This document shows, piece after piece, positions 6,074-62,417 of a stretch of 64,000 nt of DNA. The stretch is taken from positions 1-64,000 of the IMG/VR virus record IMGVR_UViG_3300009502_000026. One strand, written 5' to 3'. The position numbers were made by a program, and so were the translations under genes. This stretch comes from a virus. The stretch's first letter is position 1; the number at the start of each line of letters is the position of its first letter. The notes below the pieces were generated by a model. The model was not told where the DNA came from. It did not search any database and saw nothing but the letters and a program-made list of their open reading frames with translations.

Positions 6074-6982
6074 CTATCGGGCGTTGTGAGTTAAAGACTC
6101 TGCATTCTTCCTGGTGACATGAAGCATCTCTTCCAAATCTTCAAGCTGCCTGTCATGCTCTTCACGGTCCTTATCAAAGTCCTTCCCGGCTCCTTCAAGG
6201 ACTTTCCCATCCTTCTTATGTTCATCAAGGATATCGTAGAGCTTTTCCTCAAAAGCCCTCAACTTGGGCACATCCTTGATGGTCTTCTTGTTTGTAGCAT
6301 AGATTTCGTCATCATATTCCTTCTTGGTGTCCTTGAAGCGTTTGGATGCCTTATCTTGAGTACTCTTGATTTCTTTGAGCTTCGCTGGAGACACCTTATG
6401 TGTGGTCTTCTTCTTGTGGCTAGTTATAGCCTGCTCAACTTCTCCAATTTTACTCTTCAGTGTTCCCTGAAGGTCAGTGTTCCTCTCAGCGTACCTACCC
6501 TTGGTGCCTTCCTTCTTGTCCTTCTCCACTTGAGCGTTCGTAGCAGAGAGAAGGTCTTCCAAGGTCTTCTTCACTTCTTGAAGTTCAGATACCACATGAT
6601 GGGGGTTCTGACTTGTCCCCACTGAGAAAGTGACTCTGTTATAGTAGGAATTGGGGTCAACTTTGACCTTGCTATTCTTATCACCTTTGAGTTGCTTCAG
6701 TTTGCTATCCAAATCACCACCGGACTCTCCAGTTTCTTTGGATTTCTCTTCAGCCTTATCCGGTGCCCTCTCTTCCTTCTCCGGTGCCTTCTGAGACTCA
6801 GAACCACCCGAAGGAGCCTTCACCGTATGCTTGACATGACTCTTGGGGTGATCCTTCAAGTACTTGTCCAGAGCTTCCTGTGAAGGGAACTCCATAGCTG
6901 TCTTCAGGATAGGAAGCAGATGGGGCCGAAGCTCAAGGTTGGAATGAGCTAACTTGATGAGCTTAGTCCGAAGTGTGTCTAC
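6074..6982 (-). CDS. Leader-tagged, highly charged (K/E-rich) putative virion internal protein (probable GTA start)
   Basis: In-frame extension upstream of the ATG at 6895 encodes (V)DTLRTKLIKLAHSNLELRPHLLPILKTA, followed by the MEFPSQEALDKYLKDHP module and coiled coils. Confidence 0.7.
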   Translation of the reverse strand, partial: VDTLRTKLIKLAHSNLELRPHLLPILKTAMEFPSQEALDKYLKDHPKSHVKHTVKAPSGGSESQKAPEKEERAPDKAEEKSKETGESGGDLDSKLKQLKGDKNSKVKVDPNSYYNRVTFSVGTSQNPHHVVSELQEVKKTLEDLLSATNAQVEKDKKEGTKGRYAERNTDLQGTLKSKIGEVEQAITSHKKKTTHKVSPAKLKEIKSTQDKASKRFKDTKKEYDDEIYATNKKTIKDVPKLRAFEEKLYDILDEHKKDGKVLEGAGKDFDKDREEHDRQLEDLEEMLHVTRKNAESLTHNAR

Positions 6983-7027
6983 CCTAGGTCCTCACCCTTG
7001 AAACGTAATAGGATTTCTACTTGACGG

Positions 7028-8190: not shown

Positions 8191-8511
8191 CTACTTGGAC
8201 ATCTTCTTCAATTCGGTCTTGACCCGCTTGGCAACTTCACCCTTCCAAGAACTCGCATTATTGAGGAAGTAGGCTACAATCCCCTTACCAGAATCAGCAC
8301 CGTAGTTATCTGTAATCTTGTCCAAACCAGACATAGCTTCCAAGTAGGGCTTGGCTGCGAAGTTGACATTCTTCCAGTCCCGACGAATCTCGTCTGCAAT
8401 CTCATGGAGCGGACGTGTGCTATCTGCCGTGAGAATAGGGAGTAGATGTGGGCGTAGCTCAGGATTTGCGTGAGCTAGACGAATGATCTTGGAACGGAGA
8501 GGATCGGTCAT
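8191..8511 (-). CDS. Leader-tagged small helical phage protein (106 aa)
   Basis: Likely start MTDPLRSKIIRLAHANPELRPHLLPILTA with SD AGGAG; body RPLHEIADEIRRDWKNV..AKPYL..YFLNNASSWKG resembles a phage hypothetical family. Confidence 0.8.
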   Translation of the reverse strand: MTDPLRSKIIRLAHANPELRPHLLPILTADSTRPLHEIADEIRRDWKNVNFAAKPYLEAMSGLDKITDNYGADSGKGIVAYFLNNASSWKGEVAKRVKTELKKMSK

Positions 8512-18717: not shown

Positions 18718-19161
18718 CTACTCTTCATCTTCCAGGATAGCACCAAGCATCTTCACGAAGTCAGCCGGGGGCAGACCCTTCATGCGTTCCTTGGTCTCAG
18801 GCTTGGCATTCTGAAGGAACTTCCGCATGAGTTCTGCATCCGAGAGCTTCACACCACTCTTCGGCTTGTCCTTCTTGAACTTCTTGACCTCATCTGCATC
18901 ATCATCCTTGAGCTTGTGCTCATCCATCACGGACTTCACATTCTCATGGTACTTGCCAGCGTAGGTCTTGTTCTTCCAGGAGCTACCCTCGGGGAGAGCA
19001 CCCTCACTACCAATGTCCTCACACTTCCGGGTTCCATCATCCCAGTTAGTGCCATCTTCACACCGCTCATGGGGTGTGGATGCCAGGATGGGGAGGATGT
19101 GGGGACGAAGCTCAAGGTTGGAATGAGCTAGACGGATCAGTTTGCCACGTAGGGTTGTCAC
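18718..19161 (-). CDS. Leader-tagged charged hypothetical protein
   Basis: Starts MTTLRGKLIRLAHSNLELRPHILPILA; SD GAGGAG. Confidence 0.8.
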   Translation of the reverse strand: MTTLRGKLIRLAHSNLELRPHILPILASTPHERCEDGTNWDDGTRKCEDIGSEGALPEGSSWKNKTYAGKYHENVKSVMDEHKLKDDDADEVKKFKKDKPKSGVKLSDAELMRKFLQNAKPETKERMKGLPPADFVKMLGAILEDEE

Positions 19162-19173
19162 TGGAAATCTCCT

Positions 19174-19980
19174 CTACTTCTTAATATCCTGGGATTCATT
19201 CCTAGACTTCTTCTCATGCCAGTCAGACCACTTTTTATGCCTAGCTGCTTTTTCCTTGTGAGTCTTAGCCTCTTCGTGCTTACCCGCCTTGGTAGCAGCT
19301 TCGGCAGCTTCTTCATGAGCTTCAGTAGCTCGCCTGTGGCTACTACCCGCTATATAGTGGTCATCCCCAGTATTCTGATGCGTCTCTTCATAGTGCTTGG
19401 CAGCTTTTGAATTCTCTTCAGCACCTTCAGTTCTATCTTCAGCATAGTTCTTGGCATGGGAATAGGCATCATCTAATGCCTTCTGCTTGTGATGCTTGGC
19501 CTTTTCCTCATGGTGCTGGGCCTTCTCAGTATTTCCACGTTCCTTATGATGCTTGGCTGCATCTTCATGTTTCTTTGCAACATCATTATGGAGCTTCTCC
19601 CCCTCCCAATGTTGGTGTCCAGTGTCATCCAGTTTCTCGGAAGCCTTGTCTGCGGTAGAAGAGATGGCATCATCTTCCTGCTTCTTCTTCTTCTCAATGC
19701 CTTCATGGTGTTCCTTGGCCTTATCCTCCTTCCCCTTTTCATGCTTCTCTAGGTCACCATTCTTCTTGTCGAACATCTCTCGGATGTGCTTCTGCTCATC
19801 CTTGGGGAGAGAATCGAAATCGACCTTGTTATGTGTCTCAGGATTGGTGAACTTCTTGGTTTCGATATAGGCATCAAAACCCCCACCCATAGCCGTCTTC
19901 AGGATAGGAAGAAGATGTGGACGAAGATCGAGATTGGAATGGGCCAGACGAATCAACTTGCCACGAAGAGTGTCAGTCAT
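19174..19980 (-). CDS. Leader-tagged His/Lys/Glu-rich protein
   Basis: Starts MTDTLRGKLIRLAHSNLDLRPHLLPILKTA; NPET motif; HHE/KAK-rich helical repeats. Confidence 0.8.
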   Translation of the reverse strand: MTDTLRGKLIRLAHSNLDLRPHLLPILKTAMGGGFDAYIETKKFTNPETHNKVDFDSLPKDEQKHIREMFDKKNGDLEKHEKGKEDKAKEHHEGIEKKKKQEDDAISSTADKASEKLDDTGHQHWEGEKLHNDVAKKHEDAAKHHKERGNTEKAQHHEEKAKHHKQKALDDAYSHAKNYAEDRTEGAEENSKAAKHYEETHQNTGDDHYIAGSSHRRATEAHEEAAEAATKAGKHEEAKTHKEKAARHKKWSDWHEKKSRNESQDIKK

Positions 19981-30435: not shown

Positions 30436-30449
30436 AGGCACCGGGGGTT

Positions 30450-30875
30450 TTGACCCTCCGCTCCAAACTGATCCGATTGGCTCACTCTAACACTGAACTT
30501 CGTCCACATCTGCTCCCACTCCTGAAGACAGCCACGGACTTCCCTACACAGGAAGCTCTTGACAAATACCTCAAGGAACACCCGGACGCTGACAAGTCCA
30601 AGCACAAAGTTGTATCCAAGTCATCTGTGGATGCTGACAATGCCAGTGCAAAGGCAGACAAAGCATCACAGACTGCAAATACTACTTGGGGCACCTATAA
30701 GGAGAAGAACCATTCGGATGCTAGGGACCTCCACTGGGAAGCCAAGAACCAGCACAACAAGGCCAAAGAAGAGGCCAAGAAGAATGGTGACACTGACAAG
30801 GCCAAGTACCATGAGGACAAGGCCAAGTACCATGAGAAAAAGGAACTGGGGCACGATAAGGACGCTTATCGTTGA
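30450..30875 (+). CDS. Leader-tagged charged protein
   Basis: TTG start; MTLRSKLIRLAHSNTELRPHLLPLLKTA then DFPTQEALDKYLKEHP module; DKAKYHE duplication. Confidence 0.8.
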   Translation: MTLRSKLIRLAHSNTELRPHLLPLLKTATDFPTQEALDKYLKEHPDADKSKHKVVSKSSVDADNASAKADKASQTANTTWGTYKEKNHSDARDLHWEAKNQHNKAKEEAKKNGDTDKAKYHEDKAKYHEKKELGHDKDAYR

Positions 30876-30921
30876 CCCTTTACTTCCCCTCTCAAAGACC
30901 ACCCTTACCTGGGATAAGACA

Positions 30922-31707
30922 ATGACCCTGACCTCAAAACTGATCCGTCTCGCCAGTCAGAACCCTGCTCTCAAGCCCCACATCGCAGCCATCCTGAAGG
31001 AAGCCTCAATGTCTGAGCCTGACTTCTGGAAGCTCATCGAACCTTATGGCTGGGGGACCAAGACCACAGATTACAAAGCCATCAAGAAGAGCCTGATGGG
31101 GAAACTGTCTCCTGATGAGGCAGAGGGACTCCAGACTACAATGATGAAGCTGGAAGGCAAGCTTTACAAGGCTCTGAAAAACCTGAACATTGTGTCAGGT
31201 GACACCATGGGTGACCTCATTGCCCACATCATAGGGATGGGCAAGAAGGAATTCGAAGCGGTAATCAAGGACCCCCAACTAGCCTACCAGCGTTACCAGA
31301 GCGGTCAGTACACGGAGTCCTTCAGCTACGCTCTCCCACACAAGAGTGACTACAAGAATCTCAACGTCACCAAATTCACTGACTGGGCACAGGAGGTTAT
31401 TGGTAACTACACAATGATCCTCAATGCCTCTGAAGATGACATCCCCTGGAAGTCCAAGCTTGCGGCTCCCTTGAAGAAGGTCATCTCAATCATGGAGAAG
31501 TTCGTTGAGACAAAGGATGTAGCCACCTTCTTGGACAACGAAGCAGAAGCCAAGAAAGAGTCTGAAGAAGTGGGCAAGATTCTCAGTAGGTTGCAGCTTG
31601 GCTGGAGTATACCTAAAGAGGGTTCCCTGGAGAGTGCCGTTCATTTCAGCGGCAATAAGTGGGGTGTCTGGAACCTGTTCACTGATGTGCGGGACTACCT
31701 GAGCTAG
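30922..31707 (+). CDS. Leader-tagged DUF4240-like protein
   Basis: Likely start MTLTSKLIRLASQNPALKPHIAAILKEA; body SMSEPDFWKLIE...SGD..DL.AHIIGMGK.FE..DP..ESFSY resembles DUF4240. Confidence 0.7.
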   Translation: MTLTSKLIRLASQNPALKPHIAAILKEASMSEPDFWKLIEPYGWGTKTTDYKAIKKSLMGKLSPDEAEGLQTTMMKLEGKLYKALKNLNIVSGDTMGDLIAHIIGMGKKEFEAVIKDPQLAYQRYQSGQYTESFSYALPHKSDYKNLNVTKFTDWAQEVIGNYTMILNASEDDIPWKSKLAAPLKKVISIMEKFVETKDVATFLDNEAEAKKESEEVGKILSRLQLGWSIPKEGSLESAVHFSGNKWGVWNLFTDVRDYLS

Positions 31708-51558: not shown

Positions 51559-52902
51559 TCAGTCCACATTACCCCCGAAAGCTACCTCTTTGAGAACTCT
51601 TAGGGTTGCCAAAACATGCTTGCAAACCTTGTGATTCCCACCAGGGTCCCGAACAGAGGGGTCTGAAGCAGTCCCCCTGGGCTTCCCATACAGGTAGCCA
51701 CCCACCATTGCCCAATGTTCCGGTCCTTGGAACTGCCAGTAGTCACAGGAACAATCCACCTGTATGTGAAGCTTGCTAAGTGACTTGATGTTACCTTTTC
51801 TCAATGCACGAAGCCGAACTCTGTAGGGTTGACCCTTGCTTCCGGGTACTGCGAAATGCCAGATGCCGTTCTTGGCATCGAACCTCTTGAGCTTGGGTGT
51901 GATCCTTCGGGACTTCTCCACTACTTCTATGGGAAGGTCACTTTCAAGGTCTGCCATCTTAGCTGCAACCCTTGACCCAAACGAAGCCTCCAGGGCGGAT
52001 TCCGTCAAGATAGACAACACCACCATAGCCTGATGGTCGGAAGCCTTCTTATTTTCGTAGTCAAAACCTTCCGGGATCACCTTTGCAGACCCAGGAGCAC
52101 CCCTAGTCTCCTCACCCCGATCCAAGGTATGCCCTGGCATCTTGGCATCATCTTCAGGGTAAGTGTAAGGCTCCCCATAGGTAGGGGTGGGAAGGTCTAG
52201 GGTATCCCCTGGACGGTCATCCTGGGGTTTCCTCAGAGGGGGGTCAGTTTCCCGGTAGAAGTCAGCTAGGACCCTGTGGACAGAGGCTTCATGGGTCTCT
52301 CGCCACTCCTTGGCTCGATCCGCAGGGTTCCTCACACCACCCCCAGGAACCCGTTGGAACTTACCCTCAGTCTTCGGGTTTTTCCGGTCTTCTTGATCAA
52401 CTGAATACCATTGTTCCCGGTTGATGAAGTCATACCGGACTTTATTTCGTTCTTTGATTTCAGACTTGTTCTTCTCGTAATAACGATGGGAGTAGAGCTT
52501 GGCTTTGTCTCCCTGTGCCTTCTGCTTGGGTATAGGGAATCGTTGCTGCTCTCCAGCTAAAGCTTCGGCTTCCACTCTCCGTGGAGTGATGTTATTCTTG
52601 TAGGGGTGACCGTATTCCTCCCCAGGCTTACCTAAAGTCCTGATAGGTACCTTCTCCCCCTCACTGGGGTTGGAAGGTCCAGGACCATTGTAGTTAGCCT
52701 CTGGAAGTACGTTGTCTCTACCCTTACCATGTTCCTTCGGGAGGGGGAGTACATCCCTTTCCGCAGAGCCAGGGGTATAGGAATCGCCTGGAAGAGTACT
52801 CTTACCACCTTCTTCAATGCCTTTGTCACTCCTCTCATCTACATAGGTCTTTGTGGACCACTCATTCACGGGAGGACGGACGGCTGTTCTAGGTGTAGTC
52901 AC
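51559..52902 (-). CDS. Protein with C-terminal SWIM-type zinc finger and low-complexity N-half
   Basis: VDCSCDYW...VCKHVLA. Confidence 0.65.
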   Translation of the reverse strand: MTTPRTAVRPPVNEWSTKTYVDERSDKGIEEGGKSTLPGDSYTPGSAERDVLPLPKEHGKGRDNVLPEANYNGPGPSNPSEGEKVPIRTLGKPGEEYGHPYKNNITPRRVEAEALAGEQQRFPIPKQKAQGDKAKLYSHRYYEKNKSEIKERNKVRYDFINREQWYSVDQEDRKNPKTEGKFQRVPGGGVRNPADRAKEWRETHEASVHRVLADFYRETDPPLRKPQDDRPGDTLDLPTPTYGEPYTYPEDDAKMPGHTLDRGEETRGAPGSAKVIPEGFDYENKKASDHQAMVVLSILTESALEASFGSRVAAKMADLESDLPIEVVEKSRRITPKLKRFDAKNGIWHFAVPGSKGQPYRVRLRALRKGNIKSLSKLHIQVDCSCDYWQFQGPEHWAMVGGYLYGKPRGTASDPSVRDPGGNHKVCKHVLATLRVLKEVAFGGNVD

Positions 52903-52974: not shown

Positions 52975-53535
52975 ATGACCAACCTCCTGAATGTCCTTGA
53001 CCGAGATTTGGTGATCCTTCACAAGGGAGACACTATCCCTGTAAAGATCAGTGATGCCTTAGCTGCTTCCGGTTGGGCCGGTGGACAGTTCTGCCGTTGG
53101 ATTGATGACGGTTCAGGAGACCTTACTGTAGCACTTGCTGATGGTAGGTACTGCGGATTCATGCCATTTGGTAGCAGCGAATCCGGGGACCAGTACACCG
53201 CAATGACCAATCAGAACCCAACGTATAAGTACGTTGTGATGTTCTTTGGTGGCAACGTAGTCTACACCAAGACCTATGAGACTTACGGGTACTTGGCCCG
53301 TCATGGTCTGGGCCCCCTTACACCCATTGTCTACATCCCAAACCAATCTCTCTACATTTCAGAGAATGGTAAAATCACAAATGAGGATGAGTCAGATTTT
53401 GCAATCTTCCCTCCCCACACCTTCCCAGATGGTTCACCAATTCTAGTTAGATTTGTATTCTTCGGTGTATGTGCAGTTCCCCCGCAAACATCCACCAAGT
53501 TCTATCTGGCTACCCAGACCAACTTCGGGGTCTAG
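52975..53535 (+). CDS. Putative capsid decoration-like protein
   Basis: 186 aa; Y.PNQSLYISENGKIT and GVCAVPP pattern resemble beta-tulip decoration proteins; SD GGGAG. Confidence 0.45.
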   Translation: MTNLLNVLDRDLVILHKGDTIPVKISDALAASGWAGGQFCRWIDDGSGDLTVALADGRYCGFMPFGSSESGDQYTAMTNQNPTYKYVVMFFGGNVVYTKTYETYGYLARHGLGPLTPIVYIPNQSLYISENGKITNEDESDFAIFPPHTFPDGSPILVRFVFFGVCAVPPQTSTKFYLATQTNFGV

Positions 53536-54209
53536 GGGTTCTTCGGAGTCTTAGCTGGGGGTTCAGCAATGAACCTATTGAGAAGCGATAGCTCCATGGC
53601 ATGGGGTTGCTTCAGGATATCATCTACATCCGGGGGTGCCTTGCGTGCCTGAGCCCTTGCCTTAGCAACGGACACATCTGCATTGTCCATCTCTTTGACA
53701 GCCTTCCCAGCTATGTCTGAAGTGTTGGACAAAGCCTTTGTCTTGGCTAATTCCTCGACTTCCCGCTTCTCAGGGTTGTCAAAGAACATATTTTCAGCAG
53801 AAGGGGCACCGGAATTATCCGAGACCCCATGCTTTGCCATGTACTGACTGACAACTGACGTTGCAGAGGGCATCTTCCTTGAAGACCGGAAATGAGATCC
53901 TTGCACAGCATTATCCACTTTCTCACGGTCTGATATTGTCAAAAGGCCCTTCAAGAAATCCTGCCCCATGACTGCCAGAGCATAAGAAGTACGATCCAAA
54001 GATCGTTCCAACTCTTCCAACTGCTTTGGAGTAGCCTCAAGGATATCCCCAGCAACCTGATAGAAATGGTCCTTGTGCTCGGACCTATCTACCAAAGTCA
54101 TAGCTCTATTCAGAAGATGACTGAGACGATGGGCTCTTACCCTGGCATCCGTGACACCTTCAGTCAGGATTGCCCAGGCAGCTTGACTAGATGCAGTACG
54201 TTGGGTCAC
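53532..54209 (-). CDS. Hypothetical helical protein
   Basis: Likely GTG start (MTQRTASSQAAW) after SD GGGAG. Confidence 0.6.
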   Translation of the reverse strand: MTQRTASSQAAWAILTEGVTDARVRAHRLSHLLNRAMTLVDRSEHKDHFYQVAGDILEATPKQLEELERSLDRTSYALAVMGQDFLKGLLTISDREKVDNAVQGSHFRSSRKMPSATSVVSQYMAKHGVSDNSGAPSAENMFFDNPEKREVEELAKTKALSNTSDIAGKAVKEMDNADVSVAKARAQARKAPPDVDDILKQPHAMELSLLNRFIAEPPAKTPKNP

Positions 54210-54244
54210 AGGTATCTCCCTAACAGGGAGATAGCATAGCAAGA

Positions 54245-55386: not shown

Positions 55387-55671
55387 TCAGTTTTGGGGGA
55401 GCTTCCCCTCAGTATGTCTCTTCAACAATACCAAGGGTTGAACTGCTTCAGCTAGTCTTTGTTGTAAGGCTACCAGAAAATTAGCACTTACCCTTACCCT
55501 AGCTACCACTTCAGCCGATGAGTCTACAGGTGAGTACAATAGAAAGTCAAGAAGTGTTTCTTGATCACTCTCTGTGATGACCCTAATGGCATTGGTATAC
55601 ACCCCTCTTGGATTGACTCCAACAGCAAGGGTAATCCTATCCGGGTCAAGTTCTACTTTGGTATCACCCAC
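55387..55671 (-). CDS. DUF3467-like small protein
   Basis: GVYTN.....ETLLDF.....VVARV..S...L..L pattern. Confidence 0.6.
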   Translation of the reverse strand: MGDTKVELDPDRITLAVGVNPRGVYTNAIRVITESDQETLLDFLLYSPVDSSAEVVARVRVSANFLVALQQRLAEAVQPLVLLKRHTEGKLPQN

Positions 55672-55731
55672 AAGGCTCTCCGGTAGCTTTACTGTACCGA
55701 AGCAATCCTAGTGTTCTCGGCTGGAATGAAA

Positions 55732-57474
55732 CTAGACGTAGATACCAGTCAGATTCTCTGCCATGTTCTTACCCGAAAGGGTGATCTGGAGTCCTACCCC
55801 AGTCAGCTTGACCAGACCCTCACCTAGAAGCTTCACAATGATAGGGTTCTTGGGGTCATACTTCCCAAGCCCCTCACGTCCAAAAGCCTCTCCTCGGGAA
55901 CCCGCCTTGTAGGACTTGATGATCTTCAGTGCCTTCTTCTCATCCTCCGAGAGCTCAACCTGTGTCTCAGACGGGAGAAGCTTCTGAAGGTTGTCAGGAT
56001 TTACATAAACAGAGGCATAGGGTGTTCCCCCAATGAAACCCTTCACAACAGCACCATTCATCGGAATGGGGTAGTTCTTGTCATCCAAGTCTACCTGATT
56101 CTTGGGGTTGAACATGTTTGCCCCTCCCCAGGAACCCCATTCAAGCTTGTAGCGTCCCGTCCCTAGGTCAACTACAGCCGTGAAACCTCTACGGCCCTCA
56201 CCACCGGGATCTACTGGAGAGTAGGTATTTGAAGGGATCACTCTGATGTCCCTACGCCCGTAATCCACTTCTTTCAGAACATTCCTGATACCTTGGGGCA
56301 AGTCCTTTGTCAACATGTACTGACCCGAAGCTTCCTTGATAAGAGGAAGAAGGTCCCCACGGAACTCAGGATGGGAGTGGGCGAGCTTGATGATCTGGGA
56401 CCGGAGGCTAGCTCTCTTCTGCCCCTGGAAAGGAACATCCATATCAGACATAGCAGCATTGTAAGCTCTCCATACCTGATACATCTTCCGCATGGGGAAA
56501 CGGTACTGATCAGCTTCCTCATCGGTCTTGGCACTCATCTGCTTTTTGACAAGATCACTCTTAATATCATCAACAGCATGGAATTCCTTCTGAACCTTGT
56601 CCTTCTCCCCACTCTTCATCCTCTTCACAAGGTCTTTCTGAAGAGCTTTTACTGCCGGATGGCGATATGCCTTGTCCTTGTCCAAGTCTGCATCTGGCAT
56701 CTTTTCCATAGCATCCTGAAGATGCTTGGGCATTGCCTTGACCTCTGGGGGAACCTTCAACCCAGGAGGGGCCTTTTGAGGATAGTAACCGTTCTTCCTC
56801 TCATTCTTGTAAGTATCAGACTTGTGGTGCTCATCGTGATTGAAAGCTACTGAATGATTTTCTGGCTTGGCCTTGGGATGAGCCTTGAGGTACTCATCCA
56901 TAGCTTCCTGGGTCTTGAACTCCATAGCTGTCTTCAAGATAGGGAGAAGGTCTCCTCGGAACTCAGGGTGAGCATGGGCGAGCTTGATGACCTTAGACCG
57001 GAGAGATTGTGTGTTCACGTCTGCATTCCTCTGCTTGAGAAGGTAGATGTTCGTCTCATGTGCATTGGCTAGTGCCATGATGAAGTCATCCAAACCGAGA
57101 GTCATCTCCCCAGAACCCTTGATGGCTTCATAGAGTTCCTTCAGAATCACCTGAAGTTTCTCTTCCAACATCAAGGCCCTGAAAGGGATGTCACCTGACT
57201 TCCCATAGTATTTCCTGAGTGCCCGCATTGTGAGGGCTTCAATCCCAAGGGGCTCCACGGCTCCTGGACCAAAGTATGAGACGATCTTCTCAGCTAGACC
57301 ATCAACCTCATCTGACACACTCACATAGAGACGGTTGAAAAGATCATGGTCAGAGTAAGAGATAGCCCCATTGGTCTGCCAATGTGAGGTCCAGTGGGAC
57401 CAATGCAAAGCCTTCAGAAAGGCTAGGGCCTGTACCAGGAGACTCTTGGTGCTGTCGGAGGAAGGGGTTCCCAT
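55732..57474 (-). CDS. Putative polyprotein: ferritin/Dps-like domain plus two internal leader-tagged domains
   Basis: HWSHWTSHWQT..YSDH.LF.RLY..EVDGLAE..DDF..HE..YLL (Dps-like); internal leader copies at 56926-57003 and 56329-56406. Confidence 0.75.
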   Translation of the reverse strand: MGTPSSDSTKSLLVQALAFLKALHWSHWTSHWQTNGAISYSDHDLFNRLYVSVSDEVDGLAEKIVSYFGPGAVEPLGIEALTMRALRKYYGKSGDIPFRALMLEEKLQVILKELYEAIKGSGEMTLGLDDFIMALANAHETNIYLLKQRNADVNTQSLRSKVIKLAHAHPEFRGDLLPILKTAMEFKTQEAMDEYLKAHPKAKPENHSVAFNHDEHHKSDTYKNERKNGYYPQKAPPGLKVPPEVKAMPKHLQDAMEKMPDADLDKDKAYRHPAVKALQKDLVKRMKSGEKDKVQKEFHAVDDIKSDLVKKQMSAKTDEEADQYRFPMRKMYQVWRAYNAAMSDMDVPFQGQKRASLRSQIIKLAHSHPEFRGDLLPLIKEASGQYMLTKDLPQGIRNVLKEVDYGRRDIRVIPSNTYSPVDPGGEGRRGFTAVVDLGTGRYKLEWGSWGGANMFNPKNQVDLDDKNYPIPMNGAVVKGFIGGTPYASVYVNPDNLQKLLPSETQVELSEDEKKALKIIKSYKAGSRGEAFGREGLGKYDPKNPIIVKLLGEGLVKLTGVGLQITLSGKNMAENLTGIYV

Positions 57475-57507
57475 ACTGCCACCTATTGATAGAGGAATGA
57501 GTGAGGT

Positions 57508-59682
57508 CTAACTGTCAGCACTTATGCTTAGAGCCAACCTTCGGAGGAGAGAAGCTAGGATATGCTTCTCATTCAATCTGGCAAAGAGACGGTCCATGAT
57601 CGGCATGATTTTCTCTTCGAAGGTCTTCTCCTCAATGTACATATCATTATCGTAGGTCATCCAGTTCAACCATGGATTGCTGATCCCAGACTTGCAGAGG
57701 CGATGGTAAACATACTGTTCACAGACCCGTGCCCATACCTCAACGGAAGAAAAGGCATAGCTCAACTTCCGACTATCCCCACCATTCATCTTGGTGTAGT
57801 ACTTATCCGCTGCCTCCACTAGCACTGGAGAAAGTTCTGTCTTGTACTTTGCTTCTGTAACAGTTTTGTAGTAGTATGGATGATCTTTGGGAAGATCATA
57901 CATGCTCTGTCCTGTAAGTTCCTTGATGGCACCTTCCAGAGAGAAATCGTAAACCCCTGGAACCCTATTCTTCCATCGGGTGTAGTCTGGGGTAACCAGA
58001 ATAGTTTCTATCAGTTCAGGTATCTCAGGGAAATTGCCTGCTATACGGCCAAAATAGGCATTGGGGGTTTTGAACCATGTTGCAGCATAGTCCAGGGTCA
58101 CTCCAGTCCTACCAAAGATATTCCCGTCTGGGGATCTCCTAGCTTCCTCGGGGTTATCCTGAAGGTTTATCCGGTAGGCTAGAAGCTCATCCAAGTAGTG
58201 ACTGAGTTCATGTGCCAGGACACCCTCATAGTCCTCCCCAAATGTCACCCTTGGTTGCCATACGTTTCGATCCTCCCAAGCAAAGTAGCTAGCCTTTGCC
58301 ATGAAACCACTAGATCCCCCGAACCTGAAAGCTAGACCCTTCTTGTGCTTACCGCAGAAACCCTTCCCAAACACCCTCTCCAGGTCTGAGATAGCTCTGG
58401 ACACCCTGCCAAGGGTCTCTCTTTTCGATTCTTCAGTGTAGCTCCCCAGGAACTCCACATCACCTGTGTCATGTGTAGTCTGGAATTCCTCTACAGACAT
58501 TGGCTTCCAAGTCAGAGGTTCCAAAGGGATACCATCTCTGATAGCCTTGTTCTTCCCCAACTCATCCATGGACTCCTTGATGTTGTCAAGGAAATACCCG
58601 TTAGGGAGAATCTTCCTGTCTACAGCTTCCTGGATGACCCTCTGGAACGAGGGGAGAGTTTTCACCTGATTGAGAACCGTGAGTACCTTCCGCTGCTCAC
58701 GAGGGATGTTCTTCTTGCCCTCACTGACCATCTTGACATAGTACTTCCGTAGATTGCTGAGTACAAAGTCAGTGGGACCGTCAACTTCCACCTTGGCTTC
58801 TCTCTTCAGGATATCCTCAATAGGTTCCTGTACCTGTCCACCCTTGATGATATTGACATGAACTCCAGCCCTACGTTGGGCCTTCAGGAGTATAGCTTGT
58901 GACTTCAGCCAGTAGTCACGCTTTTGCTCCAAAGGGATTGTATCATCGTTTGCAGCATCCTTCCAAGCCTTGTCACTACGGATAACCTCACCACGAATCT
59001 CGGTTTTCTCCTCTTCGGGCATATCAAACCATGCCCCAGGATTCTCTTCCTCATGGGGGGTGAGTCCCAGACTCCTACCATCCCCTTTACCGAGAAGGAT
59101 TATCTTGCGGAGAAGTACCTTGACCCCCGTAGGGACTGCCTCCAGCCGAAGAACACTCTTGAAGAAACCAGGGTAGTCAATGTCATACTGAAGGCTTGGG
59201 TCACGCTCCTCATCATTGATGTCCATGCTGATTGCTTGTCGAACCACACGGAGCACCAATGGAGATACTTCTTGCCAATGCAATCCTCGGAGCCCCCGAA
59301 GGATCTTGGTTACATAGACAAGTGCCTGACGGTCCTGAGTAGGTAGGAGCTTGGCTACCCCACGTAGGGGAGTAGCAATGATCTTGACCCCTGGACCGTA
59401 CTCCCCAGCTTCACATTCATCTGCGAACTGAAGGCAAGCTACAACGAATTCCTTGTGGAAGAATCTCCGAACGGAAAGAAACTTCCGAACTTCACCCTCA
59501 GTGTAGAACGGGTTATTCAGGATGGCAGACTGAGCAATCTGGAGTGCAATACCTGCCGTGACTACTTCCAAGGCAGGAGTAGGCTGCTCTTTCTCAGTAG
59601 ATGCAAGCACAGGTAGAAGATGCACCCGTAGAGATGGGGTTTGCTGGGCAAGATGGATGAGACTTGACCGGAGGTTCATCAT
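57508..59682 (-). CDS. Leader-tagged protein with HExxH metallopeptidase and LPD1-like C-terminus
   Basis: MMNLRSSLIHLAQQTPSLRVHLLPVLA; LAHELSHYLD; SY..S.VEVWAR.CEQYV. Confidence 0.7.
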   Translation of the reverse strand: MMNLRSSLIHLAQQTPSLRVHLLPVLASTEKEQPTPALEVVTAGIALQIAQSAILNNPFYTEGEVRKFLSVRRFFHKEFVVACLQFADECEAGEYGPGVKIIATPLRGVAKLLPTQDRQALVYVTKILRGLRGLHWQEVSPLVLRVVRQAISMDINDEERDPSLQYDIDYPGFFKSVLRLEAVPTGVKVLLRKIILLGKGDGRSLGLTPHEEENPGAWFDMPEEEKTEIRGEVIRSDKAWKDAANDDTIPLEQKRDYWLKSQAILLKAQRRAGVHVNIIKGGQVQEPIEDILKREAKVEVDGPTDFVLSNLRKYYVKMVSEGKKNIPREQRKVLTVLNQVKTLPSFQRVIQEAVDRKILPNGYFLDNIKESMDELGKNKAIRDGIPLEPLTWKPMSVEEFQTTHDTGDVEFLGSYTEESKRETLGRVSRAISDLERVFGKGFCGKHKKGLAFRFGGSSGFMAKASYFAWEDRNVWQPRVTFGEDYEGVLAHELSHYLDELLAYRINLQDNPEEARRSPDGNIFGRTGVTLDYAATWFKTPNAYFGRIAGNFPEIPELIETILVTPDYTRWKNRVPGVYDFSLEGAIKELTGQSMYDLPKDHPYYYKTVTEAKYKTELSPVLVEAADKYYTKMNGGDSRKLSYAFSSVEVWARVCEQYVYHRLCKSGISNPWLNWMTYDNDMYIEEKTFEEKIMPIMDRLFARLNEKHILASLLRRLALSISADS

Positions 59683-61531: not shown

Positions 61532-61993
61532 CTACCGTGAAAGGGTCTCAACCAGAGCAGTCCACAGTGGATACCTGTGTTTCACATCCCCATCAGTATG
61601 ATAACTGGCAAAACTATCGGCAAAAGCTTCTTCCATGTTGTGTTGACCAAATGGAAGTGTGGATGTCTCCCAAGGATTGATACCCAACGCTTCGGCTGAC
61701 TCTATCAGATTCGAAAGACCAGCCTCGGATTCTACATGGTGCCCAAACTCATGGGTGAGAACAAAATCCTGGACAACTGAGGGCAACTCCCAGAACTTTG
61801 GGTAAAGCTCGATTCCCTTAGATGTGTACCTAGCTTCGGGATGACTGCCAGCCCCAGGATGGTCAATCTTTGTAATCCTCACCCTTGAATACTTACGAAG
61901 GGCAGAATGACGGGTGAAATACTTCTTCAGCCATGTCTCAAGATTGACTTCACGAAGAGCCCACAGAAATCTGGTTGCTACTCTGGTGTGCAT
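61532..61993 (-). CDS. Small HExxH metallopeptidase
   Basis: LTHEFGHH, NMEEAFADSF; N-terminal RVATRFL motif. Confidence 0.7.
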   Translation of the reverse strand: MHTRVATRFLWALREVNLETWLKKYFTRHSALRKYSRVRITKIDHPGAGSHPEARYTSKGIELYPKFWELPSVVQDFVLTHEFGHHVESEAGLSNLIESAEALGINPWETSTLPFGQHNMEEAFADSFASYHTDGDVKHRYPLWTALVETLSR

Positions 61994-62374
61994 TTATCTT
62001 GCCCTTGTGTAAGAGCCTAACATGATCTTACTGACTTCTTTCAAGTCCAATCCAGGATTCAGACTTCCCAGCCGTACCCAGATTCTCCCATAGGCACCCT
62101 GAAGCCATCTCTTGAGGTCTTCATCGGAAACACCTAACCGCTTTGCAGTAGCTCCCGCAGATACCGCTAGAATCTCGGCTCTCTCGGCTGCAATGGCTGT
62201 CTTGTCACCACCCTTTGCCCGTGCCATCTCATCAGCTTGACCAAACATCCTAATAACCATGGCATCCAGCTTCTCTACCAAAAGATTACCTGCCTCTTTC
62301 AACATAGGGAGTAGGTGGGGTCGGAGAGAAGGCTCATTGTGGGCAAGTCGAATAATCTTGGAACGGAGAGTCAT
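61994..62374 (-). CDS. Leader-tagged small helical protein
   Basis: MTLRSKIIRLAHNEPSLRPHLLPMLKEA; SD GAGG. Confidence 0.8.
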   Translation of the reverse strand: MTLRSKIIRLAHNEPSLRPHLLPMLKEAGNLLVEKLDAMVIRMFGQADEMARAKGGDKTAIAAERAEILAVSAGATAKRLGVSDEDLKRWLQGAYGRIWVRLGSLNPGLDLKEVSKIMLGSYTRAR

Positions 62375-62417
62375 AGAACCTCAACGATTGACAGAGATAG
62401 GGCAACTAGGGTAAGGT

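What the first reader, a model, noticed from the sequence alone, without database searches (positions are those of the whole stretch)
55732..57474. Apparent phage polyprotein: Dps/ferritin-like domain and two payloads separated by internal tags
One 580-aa frame holds a ~150-aa ferritin-like domain, then SLRSKVIKLAHAHPEFRGDLLPILKTA, a charged domain, then SLRSQIIKLAHSHPEFRGDLLPLIKEA and a third domain. The two internal tags resemble each other (PEFRGDLLP) and the 18673 tag. Cleavage after each K-x-A would release three proteins. This would show the tag works away from the N-terminus, arguing against a secretion signal, and would co-package a possible iron-binding/DNA-protecting protein.
Basis: partly seen in the sequence, partly recalled or inferred. 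Interest (0 to 1): 0.75.

Follow-up and report, generated by a model that had tools for sequence, protein, structure and literature searches.

The report
Tag-punctuated Dps fusion protein, huge phage
A gene of an uncultivated lake-water huge phage joins a Dps (iron-detoxifying, DNA-protecting) domain to two other modules through two internal copies of a 28-residue helical tag that heads a dozen other proteins in the same phage. The tag is most likely an address label for loading proteins into the capsid, but neither loading nor cutting has been shown.

Summary
ORF 55732-57474(-) is one open 580-aa frame with a good Shine-Dalgarno site. It is identical and gap-free in contigs assembled independently from two studies, so it is not an assembly error.

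**Modules**
- Residues 1-155 are a confident Dps fold with the four ferroxidase ligands (H31, H43, D58, E62).
- Residues 156-183 and 355-382 are two copies of a 28-aa helix-break-helix tag.
- Residues 184-354 are a charged module of unknown fold.
- Residues 383-580 are a beta-rich module ending in a winged-helix-like part.

**The tag**
- It occurs 15 times in the 94-kb contig: 12 N-terminal, 3 internal.
- It matches 3,404 protein clusters in public data, at N-terminal, internal and C-terminal positions.
- [KR]-x-A sits exactly at both tag borders, about 27-fold over background upstream.

**Relatives**
- In the closest complete relative (485 kb) the three modules are separate genes.
- Another relative has Dps-tag-D3.
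- Related phages without any tag carry an untagged D3.

**Reading**
- Best reading (about 0.5): a position-independent capsid-addressing tag, possibly excised by an Ala-specific head protease.
- Cleavage and packaging are untested.
- Other first-reader notes on this same genome had already flagged the tag.

The parts
57479..57484 (-). Shine-Dalgarno-like AGGTGG, 4 nt upstream of the ATG at 57474
   Evidence: Read directly from the sequence. It supports the full-length start over the gene caller's truncated start at V53 (P0001).
57010..57474 (-). Dps-like four-helix-bundle domain, residues 1-155, with ferroxidase ligands H31, H43, D58, E62
   Evidence: AF2 pLDDT is mostly above 90. Foldseek's top 48 hits are all Dps, TM by target 0.74-0.78. 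phmmer finds Dps PDB chains aligning HW31-32, H43, D58, E62. There are 101 shorter relatives, many carrying PF19174 or PF00210. The four ligands are at least 90% conserved across 62 sequences.
56926..57009 (-). Internal tag A, residues 156-183, helix-break-helix; R-N-A lies 5 residues upstream and the tag ends in K-T-A
   Evidence: Tag HMM 61.3 bits. Model helices 156-168 and 170-184, pLDDT about 83. [KR]xA positions.
56413..56925 (-). Middle module, residues 184-354. It opens with a conserved EF..(S/T)..EA..YL..HP.A.P..H.V box, followed by a charged, partly disordered region (pI 9.1)
   Evidence: The box directly follows the tag in 12 of 161 tag-bearing proteins. Paralogs of tag plus box lie at 6074-6991(-), 30438-30872(+) and 19174-19980(-). 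No fold or family match.
56329..56412 (-). Internal tag B, residues 355-382; K-R-A ends at its first residue and the tag ends in K-E-A
   Evidence: Tag HMM 57.6 bits. Model helices 357-367 and 369-382. [KR]xA positions.
55735..56328 (-). Third module D3, residues 383-580: a beta-rich N-terminal part plus a winged-helix-like C-terminal part (about residues 504-579)
   Evidence: 26 IMG/VR loci, mostly huge phages. It is a stand-alone tagged gene at the syntenic place in LR745208.1, and untagged and about 200 aa in tag-less phages. VIA-align gives Z 7-8.6 to MarR-type and other winged helices over model residues 123-198. The Atlas structure rows agree.
59596..59679 (-). N-terminal tag of the upstream neighbour, a 724-aa protein with an HExxH motif and a weak LPD1 match
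62291..62374 (-). N-terminal tag of a 128-aa ORF
   Evidence: 62.3 bits
61412..61495 (-). N-terminal tag of a 214-aa ORF
   Evidence: 28.5 bits
27489..27572 (-). N-terminal tag of a 344-aa ORF
   Evidence: 58.5 bits
18587..18670 (-). N-terminal tag of a 267-aa ORF (the '18673 tag'), same HPEFR subtype as tags A and B
19891..19974 (-). N-terminal tag of a 268-aa ORF that also resembles the middle module (32% identity over residues 154-289)
19075..19158 (-). N-terminal tag of a ~150-aa ORF
8422..8505 (-). Tag at the probable true start (M-T-D-P) of the phrog_13953 protein
6896..6979 (-). N-terminal tag plus EF-box paralog of the middle module
30450..30533 (+). N-terminal tag plus EF-box paralog on the + strand
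30922..31005 (+). Diverged tag at the probable start of the 30559-31707 ORF
   Evidence: 22.2 bits
53532..54242 (-). Downstream 236-aa gene. Its C-terminal FFDNP...STLNR domain is fused to Dps-like domains in other phages, which suggests a functional link

Best explanation
**Shown**
- The gene is a real, lineage-specific fusion of three modules that are separate genes elsewhere.
- The modules are a Dps-type ferroxidase/DNA-protection domain, a charged 'EF-box' module, and a beta-plus-winged-helix-like module (D3).
- They are joined by two copies of a portable 28-aa basic helix-break-helix tag.

**Inferred**
- The tag is a position-independent address module. It docks its bearer to a common partner during prohead assembly, either the scaffold/core or the inner capsid surface. 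Tagged proteins would then be enclosed with the genome.
- The [KR]-x-A motifs at both tag borders would be sites for an Ala-specific maturation protease: either the head protease or one of the tagged zincins.
- That protease would excise the tags and free Dps, the middle module and D3 inside the head.
- By fusing upstream of an already tagged D3, the Dps domain would piggy-back into the virion. Dps is untagged when it stands alone.
- Inside the virion, a Dps dodecamer would guard the packed genome against iron/peroxide damage. The basic middle and winged-helix-like modules would contact DNA.
For: **The fusion is real**
-.

**Dps identity**
-.

**Modules are separate genes elsewhere**
- LR745208.1 has tag-D3 at the syntenic locus, an untagged 161-aa Dps about 90 kb away, and tag+EF-box genes elsewhere.
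- P0002 is Dps-tag-D3. P0003 and P0005 are tag-middle-tag-D3. P0085 is Dps with a C-terminal tag.

**The tag is portable and system-specific**
- 15 copies on unrelated proteins in 94 kb.
- 3,404 clusters at E<=1e-3.
- Tag-bearing phages have 7-19 copies. Three relatives that are 94-100% complete have none, and their D3 is untagged.

**Processing hints**
- [KR]xA ends exactly at tag position 1 in 34% of non-N-terminal tags, against a 1.3% background. It closes 40% of tags.
- 4 of the 7 [KR]xA motifs in this protein sit at tag borders.
- [KR]TA is 8-fold enriched in the first 30 residues of this contig's genes, including the capsid-candidate and protease genes.

**Context**
- The gene lies about 6-7 kb downstream of the terminase-portal-protease-capsid block, on the same strand, among other tagged genes.

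**Precedents**
- The T4 capsid-targeting sequence and SPN3US propeptides (PMC10052503).
Against: - There are no proteomic, structural or expression data; no RNA run was listed.
- The protease's family and specificity are unresolved.
- A close protease homolog (53% identity) exists in a tag-less phage, so the protease alone does not define the system.
- Only 12% of internal tags have [KR]xA on both sides.
- Tag A in this protein has its upstream site 5 residues away, not adjacent.
- Some proteins are little more than strings of tags with short charged linkers. That fits a functional binding or scaffolding repeat better than a disposable propeptide.
- Tagged genes are also found far from the head module, for example next to a DNA ligase at about 27-31 kb.
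- A folded Dps dodecamer could not pass a tail channel, so any role after ejection is doubtful.
Confidence: 0.5

Rival explanations
1. The tags are permanent docking or cross-linking modules, not propeptides. The 580-aa protein stays whole. Its two tags, and the many tags of 'beads-on-a-string' proteins, bind a common hub multivalently. The hub could be the capsid interior, DNA, or other tags. Together they would build an inner protein body or scaffold-like network. A Dps dodecamer would then display 12 basic arms.
For: - Multi-tag proteins have 2-6 tags and short charged linkers.
- C-terminal tags exist.
- Tag residues are basic and strongly conserved, with many synonymous DNA differences.
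- Only a minority of tags have [KR]xA on both sides.
- In the model, tag A's first helix continues the last Dps helix.
Against: - The positional [KR]xA enrichment at both borders (27-fold upstream) has no obvious reason in an uncleaved linker.
- Similarity stops right after K-x-A.
- The same motif closes short N-terminal leaders of head genes.
Confidence: 0.3
2. The tag addresses proteins to something other than the capsid. Candidates are a host or phage chaperone, a replication or assembly compartment, an export route, or a common modifying enzyme in the manner of conserved RiPP leader peptides. The fusion simply brings three co-working modules to that place.
For: - One conserved leader on many unrelated bodies is also the logic of Nif11/NHLP-type leaders (my own knowledge).
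- Some tagged genes sit in non-structural surroundings, near the ligase.
- The stand-alone Dps of LR745208.1 lies beside chaperonin-like and other non-structural genes.
Against: - The cargoes are large folded proteins, not short core peptides.
- Internal and C-terminal tags argue against Sec/Tat-type signals.
- Tagged genes are densest just downstream of the head genes.
- No modifying-enzyme genes were recognised nearby.
Confidence: 0.13
3. The long frame is an artefact: a chimeric assembly, or a decayed fusion that is not translated as one protein.
For: The public gene call (P0001) starts at V53 and cuts the Dps domain. No RNA evidence is available.
Against: - The sequence is identical and gap-free in separately assembled contigs from two studies, at depth 8-21.
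- A strong SD precedes the ATG.
- A 68%-identical relative (P0002) has the same Dps-tag-D3 junction.
- All modules are conserved at protein level.
Confidence: 0.02

Closest known systems
T4 capsid targeting sequence (CTS) of internal proteins IPI-III, removed by the gp21 prohead protease (Mullaney & Black 1996, cited in PMC10052503)
   Same: A short portable leader sends unrelated proteins into the prohead and ends in a protease motif. The cargo stays in the head with the DNA.
   Different: - The T4 CTS is about 10 residues, strictly N-terminal and ends in L/I-x-E.
- This tag is 28 residues and a predicted helix-break-helix.
- It is found N-terminally, internally and C-terminally.
- It is bordered by [KR]-x-A and shows no sequence likeness to the T4 CTS.
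- Its function is untested.
Propeptides of phiKZ/SPN3US-type giant-phage head and ejection proteins, cut at A/S/G-x-E by gp175/gp245 (PMC10052503, PMC5694885)
   Same: Giant phages load many proteins into the head and process them by a head protease, sometimes at several sites per protein.
   Different: - Those propeptides are 20-254 residues and are not a shared conserved sequence.
- Their cleavage is Glu-specific.
- Here one conserved tag is reused on at least 13 gene products, and the candidate P1 residue is Ala.
Encapsulin cargo-loading peptides and encapsulated ferritin-like proteins
   Same: A short peptide docks cargo, often a ferritin-like iron-oxidising protein, to the inside of an HK97-fold shell.
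   Different: - Encapsulin loading peptides are about 10 residues, usually C-terminal and not cleaved.
- There is no sequence similarity.
- Here the shell would be a DNA-filled virus capsid, and the iron protein is a Dps, not an EncFtn/Flp.
Helix-loop-helix coat-binding domain of P22-type scaffolding proteins
   Same: A small basic helix-turn-helix that binds the inner capsid surface. Strings of tags with charged linkers look scaffold-like.
   Different: - No detectable homology.
- The P22 domain is a single C-terminal copy on the scaffold itself and is not proteolysed.
- The comparison rests on predicted secondary structure only.
Polyvalent proteins of phages and conjugative elements (Iyer et al. 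2017), and the 1,345-aa head polyprotein noted earlier in this genome
   Same: Multi-domain proteins thought to be packaged and processed into separate effectors. The upstream neighbour has a weak LPD1 match and a zincin motif.
   Different: - This protein is short (580 aa) and has no protease domain of its own.
- Its modules are separated by a conserved structured tag rather than by plain linkers.
Herpesvirus assemblin (MEROPS S21) maturation and release sites, (V/L/I)-x-A|S
   Same: A capsid maturation protease of the same structural clan as tailed-phage prohead proteases cuts after Ala before Ser. That is the pattern seen at K-R-A|S and K-E-A|S here (my own knowledge).
   Different: - P3 is Lys/Arg here, not an aliphatic residue.
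- The family of this phage's protease could not be assigned.

Membership tests
Dps (ferritin-like superfamily; PF00210 / PF19174 DUF5856) | Four-helix bundle with a short BC helix, about 150 residues | tested here: met
   The AF2 model has helices 7-33, 39-68, 75-90, 96-120 and 126-, with pLDDT mostly above 90. Foldseek's top hits are all Dps chains, 144-156 aligned columns, TM by target 0.74-0.78, prob 1.00.
Dps (ferritin-like superfamily; PF00210 / PF19174 DUF5856) | Inter-subunit ferroxidase ligands: two His on helices A/B, and Asp + Glu on helix B | tested here: met
   H31(W32), H43, D58 and E62 align to the same residues of Bacillus brevis Dps 1n1q. They are at least 90% conserved in 62 relatives.
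Dps (ferritin-like superfamily; PF00210 / PF19174 DUF5856) | Pfam model above the gathering score | tested here: inconclusive
   DUF5856 scores 18.1 bits against a cut-off of 34.6, matching residues 31-70 only. Relatives at 45-59% identity carry PF19174 and/or PF00210 in precomputed annotation.
Dps (ferritin-like superfamily; PF00210 / PF19174 DUF5856) | Dodecameric cage, iron oxidation, DNA protection | not testable with these tools
   Needs expression, SEC/EM and a ferroxidase assay.
Capsid-targeting propeptide (T4 CTS / giant-phage propeptide type) | N-terminal position on the precursor | tested here: not met
   The two copies in this protein are internal (residues 156-183 and 355-382). Family-wide there are 122 N-terminal, 162 internal and 53 C-terminal copies. 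Twelve other copies in this contig are N-terminal.
Capsid-targeting propeptide (T4 CTS / giant-phage propeptide type) | Ends in the head protease's cleavage motif | tested here: inconclusive
   [KR]xA closes 40% of tags and precedes 34% of non-N-terminal tags, against a 1.3% background. The protease's specificity is unknown.
Capsid-targeting propeptide (T4 CTS / giant-phage propeptide type) | Bearer is found, processed, in the virion | not testable with these tools
   The phage is uncultivated and no proteome is available.
Polyvalent protein (Iyer et al. 2017) | Very large multi-domain protein with LPD domains and its own processing peptidase | tested here: not met
   The protein is 580 aa with no LPD or peptidase domain. 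Only the neighbouring 724-aa protein has a sub-threshold LPD1 match (21 bits against 27).
Encapsulin cargo (cargo-loading peptide) | Short C-terminal loading peptide next to an encapsulin shell gene | tested here: not met
   The tag is 28 aa and internal. The surroundings are a tailed-phage head module with terminase and portal.
Winged-helix DNA-binding domain (C-terminal part of D3) | H-H-H-beta-hairpin fold matching solved wHTH domains | tested here: inconclusive
   VIA-align gives Z 7-8.6, rmsd 2.3-3.1, 65-75 residues aligned to MarR, F-93, MUS81 WH and others. Such Z values are common for small helical domains. Foldseek found nothing clear. The Atlas structure rows also list WH-like clusters.

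The most novel reading that the evidence does not exclude
Huge phages of this lineage would use a single 28-residue helix-break-helix tag as an address for loading any protein into the capsid. The tag would work from any position and would be bracketed by Ala-specific protease sites. Polyproteins like this one would be cut at the tags into separate cargo. The cargo would include a Dps nanocage packed beside the genome, making this a viral counterpart of encapsulated ferritin.
Probability: 0.35. Interest if true: 0.85.

Novelty: new variant of a known kind. Interest (0 to 1): 0.62.

Why it matters
**If the tag is a capsid address**
- It would be the first conserved, sequence-defined cargo-loading signal for uncultivated huge phages.
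- It would let anyone list the internal-protein cargo of such phages from sequence alone. About 3,400 protein clusters already match.
- It would offer a portable handle for loading foreign proteins into large capsids.

**What this gene adds**
- It is the cleanest natural test case, with a well-understood domain (Dps) followed by two internal tags.
- A single mass-spectrometry or co-expression experiment could tell whether the tag works internally and whether [KR]-x-A is cut.
- A Dps packed with viral DNA would also be a new way for a virus to protect its genome outside the cell.

Tried and rejected
- **Related loci by tag alignment:** I counted tags in whole relatives with the genome search instead.
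- **Expression:** no RNA holder was listed for the stretch, so nothing can be said about it.
- **D3 fold:** Foldseek against the PDB gave no clear match.
- **Middle module:** the ESM Atlas gave nothing usable for it.
- **D3 in the Atlas:** only sub-0.9 feature hits.
- **Head protease family:** Pfam sees only the intein in the protease-like protein. phmmer of its C-terminal extein against PDB sequences found nothing.
- **Literature:** searches for the tag's letter strings found no relevant paper. This does not prove the tag is undescribed.
- **Phage records:** tblastn against 50,697 records found only LR745208.1 at E<=1e-5.
- **Stop-codon readthrough:** I considered that the tagged 128-aa frame (61997-62380) and the in-frame zincin ORF behind it are joined this way. 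The stop is TAA followed directly by ATG, so they are most likely ordinary coupled genes.
- **Recent DNA duplication of tags A and B:** rejected, because they differ at many synonymous positions.
- **RiPP-type leader:** judged unlikely, because the cargoes are large folded domains.
Full report
**What the window is.** The window is the first 64 kb of a 94,090-bp IMG/VR virus record. CheckV rates it 22% complete, which implies a genome of roughly 400-450 kb. Nearly all genes are on the minus strand (86 of 92 by a simple non-overlapping ORF set). Beyond the window's end lie a large terminase (79875-83168), a portal (76246-79266) and a 919-aa protein with a head-maturation-protease match (67199-69958). 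The finding lies about 6-7 kb downstream of a capsid-candidate gene (63947-64825), on the same strand. The DNA occurs in freshwater and lake-water metagenomes from two studies.

**Checking the observation.**
- ORF 55732-57474(-) is 580 aa, starts with ATG and is free of stops.
- AGGTGG lies 4 nt before the ATG. The public gene call (P0001, 528 aa) starts at V53 and would cut the first domain, so I prefer the ATG.
- Contigs assembled separately from run X1 (2017 study, 43-kb contig, depth 21) and run X3 (2020 study) cover 55600-57600 in one piece with no mismatch and no gap. Either sample may be the source of the record, but the two assemblies agree, so a chimeric join is very unlikely.
- A profile made from seven tags finds 15 copies in the six-frame translation of the contig, at 22-62 bits. 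Everything else scores below 9 bits.
- The two internal copies score 61.3 and 57.6 bits.
- Twelve copies sit at or next to likely start codons. Three are internal: the two here, and one at position 153 of the 89490-90698 frame.
- Tags A and B belong with the 18673 tag and an 87.7-kb tag to an 'HPEFRGDLLP' subtype.
- The DNA of the copies differs at many synonymous positions, so selection acts on the peptide.

**The three modules.**

*Residues 1-155.*
- These are modelled with pLDDT mostly above 90 as a four-helix bundle with a BC helix.
- Every top Foldseek hit is a Dps (TM by target 0.74-0.78).
- phmmer aligns H31-W32, H43, D58 and E62 with the same residues of Bacillus brevis Dps.
- These four residues are at least 90% conserved among 62 relatives.
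- By my own knowledge, they are the ferroxidase ligands of Listeria-type Dps. The PDB title of 2bjy (H31G-H43G mutant) fits that.
- 101 shorter relatives were found, most about 150 aa. Many are annotated PF19174/PF00210 and sit on phage contigs of up to 473 kb.

*Residues 184-354.*
- These begin with a conserved box (EF, S/T, EA, YL, HP, A, P, H, V in fixed spacing).
- The box follows the tag directly in 12 of 161 tag-bearing proteins and in two paralogs in this window.
- The rest is charged and partly disordered. No fold or family was found.

*Residues 383-580 (D3).*
- The N-terminal part is beta-rich.
- The C-terminal ~75 residues resemble winged-helix domains at Z 7-8.6. That is a middling score, so I treat it as a lead only. 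The Atlas structure rows point the same way.

**Relatives: fused and split forms.**
- The closest complete relative is LR745208.1 (485 kb).
  - At the syntenic place it has a 351-aa gene that starts with the tag followed by D3. Homologs of the 94-, 377- and 236-aa downstream genes follow.
  - Its Dps is a 161-aa untagged gene about 90 kb away, beside chaperonin-like and other non-structural genes.
  - Its tag+EF-box genes lie elsewhere.
- P0002 (68% identical) is Dps-tag-D3 without the middle module.
- P0003 and P0005 are tag-middle-tag-D3.
- P0007 is another domain followed by tag-D3.
- P0006 is untagged D3 with an extension.
- P0085 is a Dps with the tag at its very C-terminus.
- The three parts are therefore independent modules, and the 580-aa arrangement is a lineage-specific fusion.

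**The tag family.**
- The 15-copy profile matches 3,404 of 1.84 billion cluster representatives at E<=1e-3, and 454 at E<=1e-10.
- The 150 best-scoring hold 122 N-terminal, 162 internal and 53 C-terminal copies, usually 2-6 per protein. This list is biased towards multi-tag proteins because scores add up, and some 'terminal' copies may be contig truncations.
- Some proteins are little more than tags separated by short charged linkers with recurring mini-modules.
- Pfam has no model for the tag, and letter-string searches of the literature found nothing relevant.
- The system is lineage-specific. LR745208.1 has 11 copies, G001 (436 kb, complete) has 7 and G002 (497 kb) has 19.
- G003, G004 and G005 (94-100% complete) have none, and in those genomes the D3 homolog is an untagged protein of about 200 aa.
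- D3 therefore carries the tag only where the tag system exists. That is the behaviour expected of an address label rather than of part of D3's fold.

**Hints of processing.**
- Similarity between tags ends at K-x-A.
- In the 150 representatives, [KR]-x-A closes 40% of tags.
- [KR]-x-A also ends exactly at tag position 1 in 34% of non-N-terminal tags. The per-position background in the same proteins is 1.3%. Both sides carry it in 12%.
- This protein has seven [KR]-x-A motifs, and four lie at tag borders: R-N-A 149-151, K-T-A 181-183, K-R-A 353-355 and K-E-A 380-382. Two more are the conserved K-L-A inside the tags.
- [KR]-T-A is 8-fold enriched in the first 30 residues of this contig's genes. 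It forms short M-x(1-5)-R-T-A leaders on the protease-like gene and on the 181-, 86- and 447-aa ORFs; the 310-aa ORF has M-S-R-T-A at an internal Met (residue 16) that may be its true start, and the capsid candidate carries K-T-A at residues 19-21.
My counts support the positional enrichment but cannot show cleavage.
- Cutting after Ala and before Ser is what herpesvirus assemblin does (my own knowledge).
- The family of this phage's protease could not be assigned, because Pfam sees only an intein inside it.
- A 53%-identical protease exists in the tag-less G004.

**Most likely mechanism.**
- I think the tag is a small basic helix-break-helix that docks its bearer to a shared partner in the assembling prohead. 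Because it is a self-contained module, it works from any position.
- The [KR]-x-A borders would then let a maturation protease remove it.
- On this reading the fusion puts an otherwise untagged Dps in front of a tagged D3, so that Dps rides into the head. There, processing yields Dps (about 17 kDa), the middle module (about 20 kDa), D3 (about 22 kDa) and two tag peptides.
- Shown: the fusion, the modules, the tag's portability and position independence, and the motif enrichment.
- Inferred: docking, packaging, cleavage and the role of Dps.
- Precedents are the T4 capsid-targeting sequence and the giant-phage propeptides (PMC10052503). [quoted passage not shown]
- I give this reading about 0.5.

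**Rivals.**
- The main rival (0.3) is that tags are permanent multivalent binding modules that build an inner body or scaffold. The tag-string proteins and the incomplete bracketing favour it.
- A non-capsid destination gets 0.13.
- An artefact gets 0.02.

**Novelty and score.**
- Capsid-targeting leaders and head polyproteins are known kinds. A conserved 28-aa structured tag that is reused N-terminally, internally and C-terminally across thousands of clusters appears to be an undescribed variant. The same goes for a Dps wired into it.
- Other first-reader notes on this same genome had already flagged the tag. None came from other DNA.
- The finding is a good, testable case but has no functional evidence, so I score interest at 0.62.

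Noticed in passing
G000 67199-69958 (-), i.e. L010:3199-5958: The head-maturation-protease-like gene is interrupted by an intein, with Hint plus LAGLIDADG Pfam hits over residues ~106-525.
   Followed up: partly
window 53532-54242 (-): The C-terminal half of this 236-aa protein (FFDNP...REV.E.A...SN...LNR) is the domain fused to Dps-like domains in at least six other phage proteins: P0008, P0061, P0070, P0086, P0105 and P0085. This is a Rosetta-stone link to the Dps fusion two genes upstream. Its function is unknown.
   Followed up: partly
whole contig; e.g. window 51559-52902, 63947-64825; G000 69963-70508, 79618-79878: Short N-terminal leaders of the form M-x(1-5)-R-T-A occur on several head-region genes. 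[KR]TA is 8-fold enriched in the first 30 residues (0.40 against 0.05 per 100 aa).
   Followed up: partly
relatives G003 and G005 (IMG/VR, 206-212 kb, complete): The protease homolog contains one in-frame TAG in both genomes, which hints at TAG reassignment in these smaller relatives.
   Followed up: no
window 61532-62380 (-): A tagged 128-aa frame and a zincin-like ORF (HEFGH; weak ATLF/Zn_peptidase matches) are in the same reading frame, separated only by TAA-ATG. They are probably coupled genes rather than a readthrough product. A similar tag ORF-TGA-EF-box-Dps arrangement occurs in G002 (L041).
   Followed up: partly
G000 89487-90653 (-), i.e. L011:5487-6653: This is a second protein in the genome with an internal tag (frame position 153-178). 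It has unknown domains on either side and no family hits.
   Followed up: no
proteins P0117, P0119, P0126, P0145 (public metagenomes): These are 'beads-on-a-string' proteins made of 3-4 tags separated by short acidic or lysine-rich linkers. The linkers carry recurring mini-modules, for example a Cys-containing G-C-E-K-L-P...C-E-K-K piece.
   Followed up: no
window 55732-57474 (-), public gene call P0001: The automatic gene call starts at GTG (V53) and truncates the Dps domain. The upstream ATG with AGGTGG is the better start.
   Followed up: yes
window 57508-59682 (-): The tagged 724-aa upstream neighbour has an HExxH motif (H-E-L-S-H) and a sub-threshold LPD1 (polyvalent-protein) match at its C-terminus. 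It is a candidate packaged metalloprotease.
   Followed up: no
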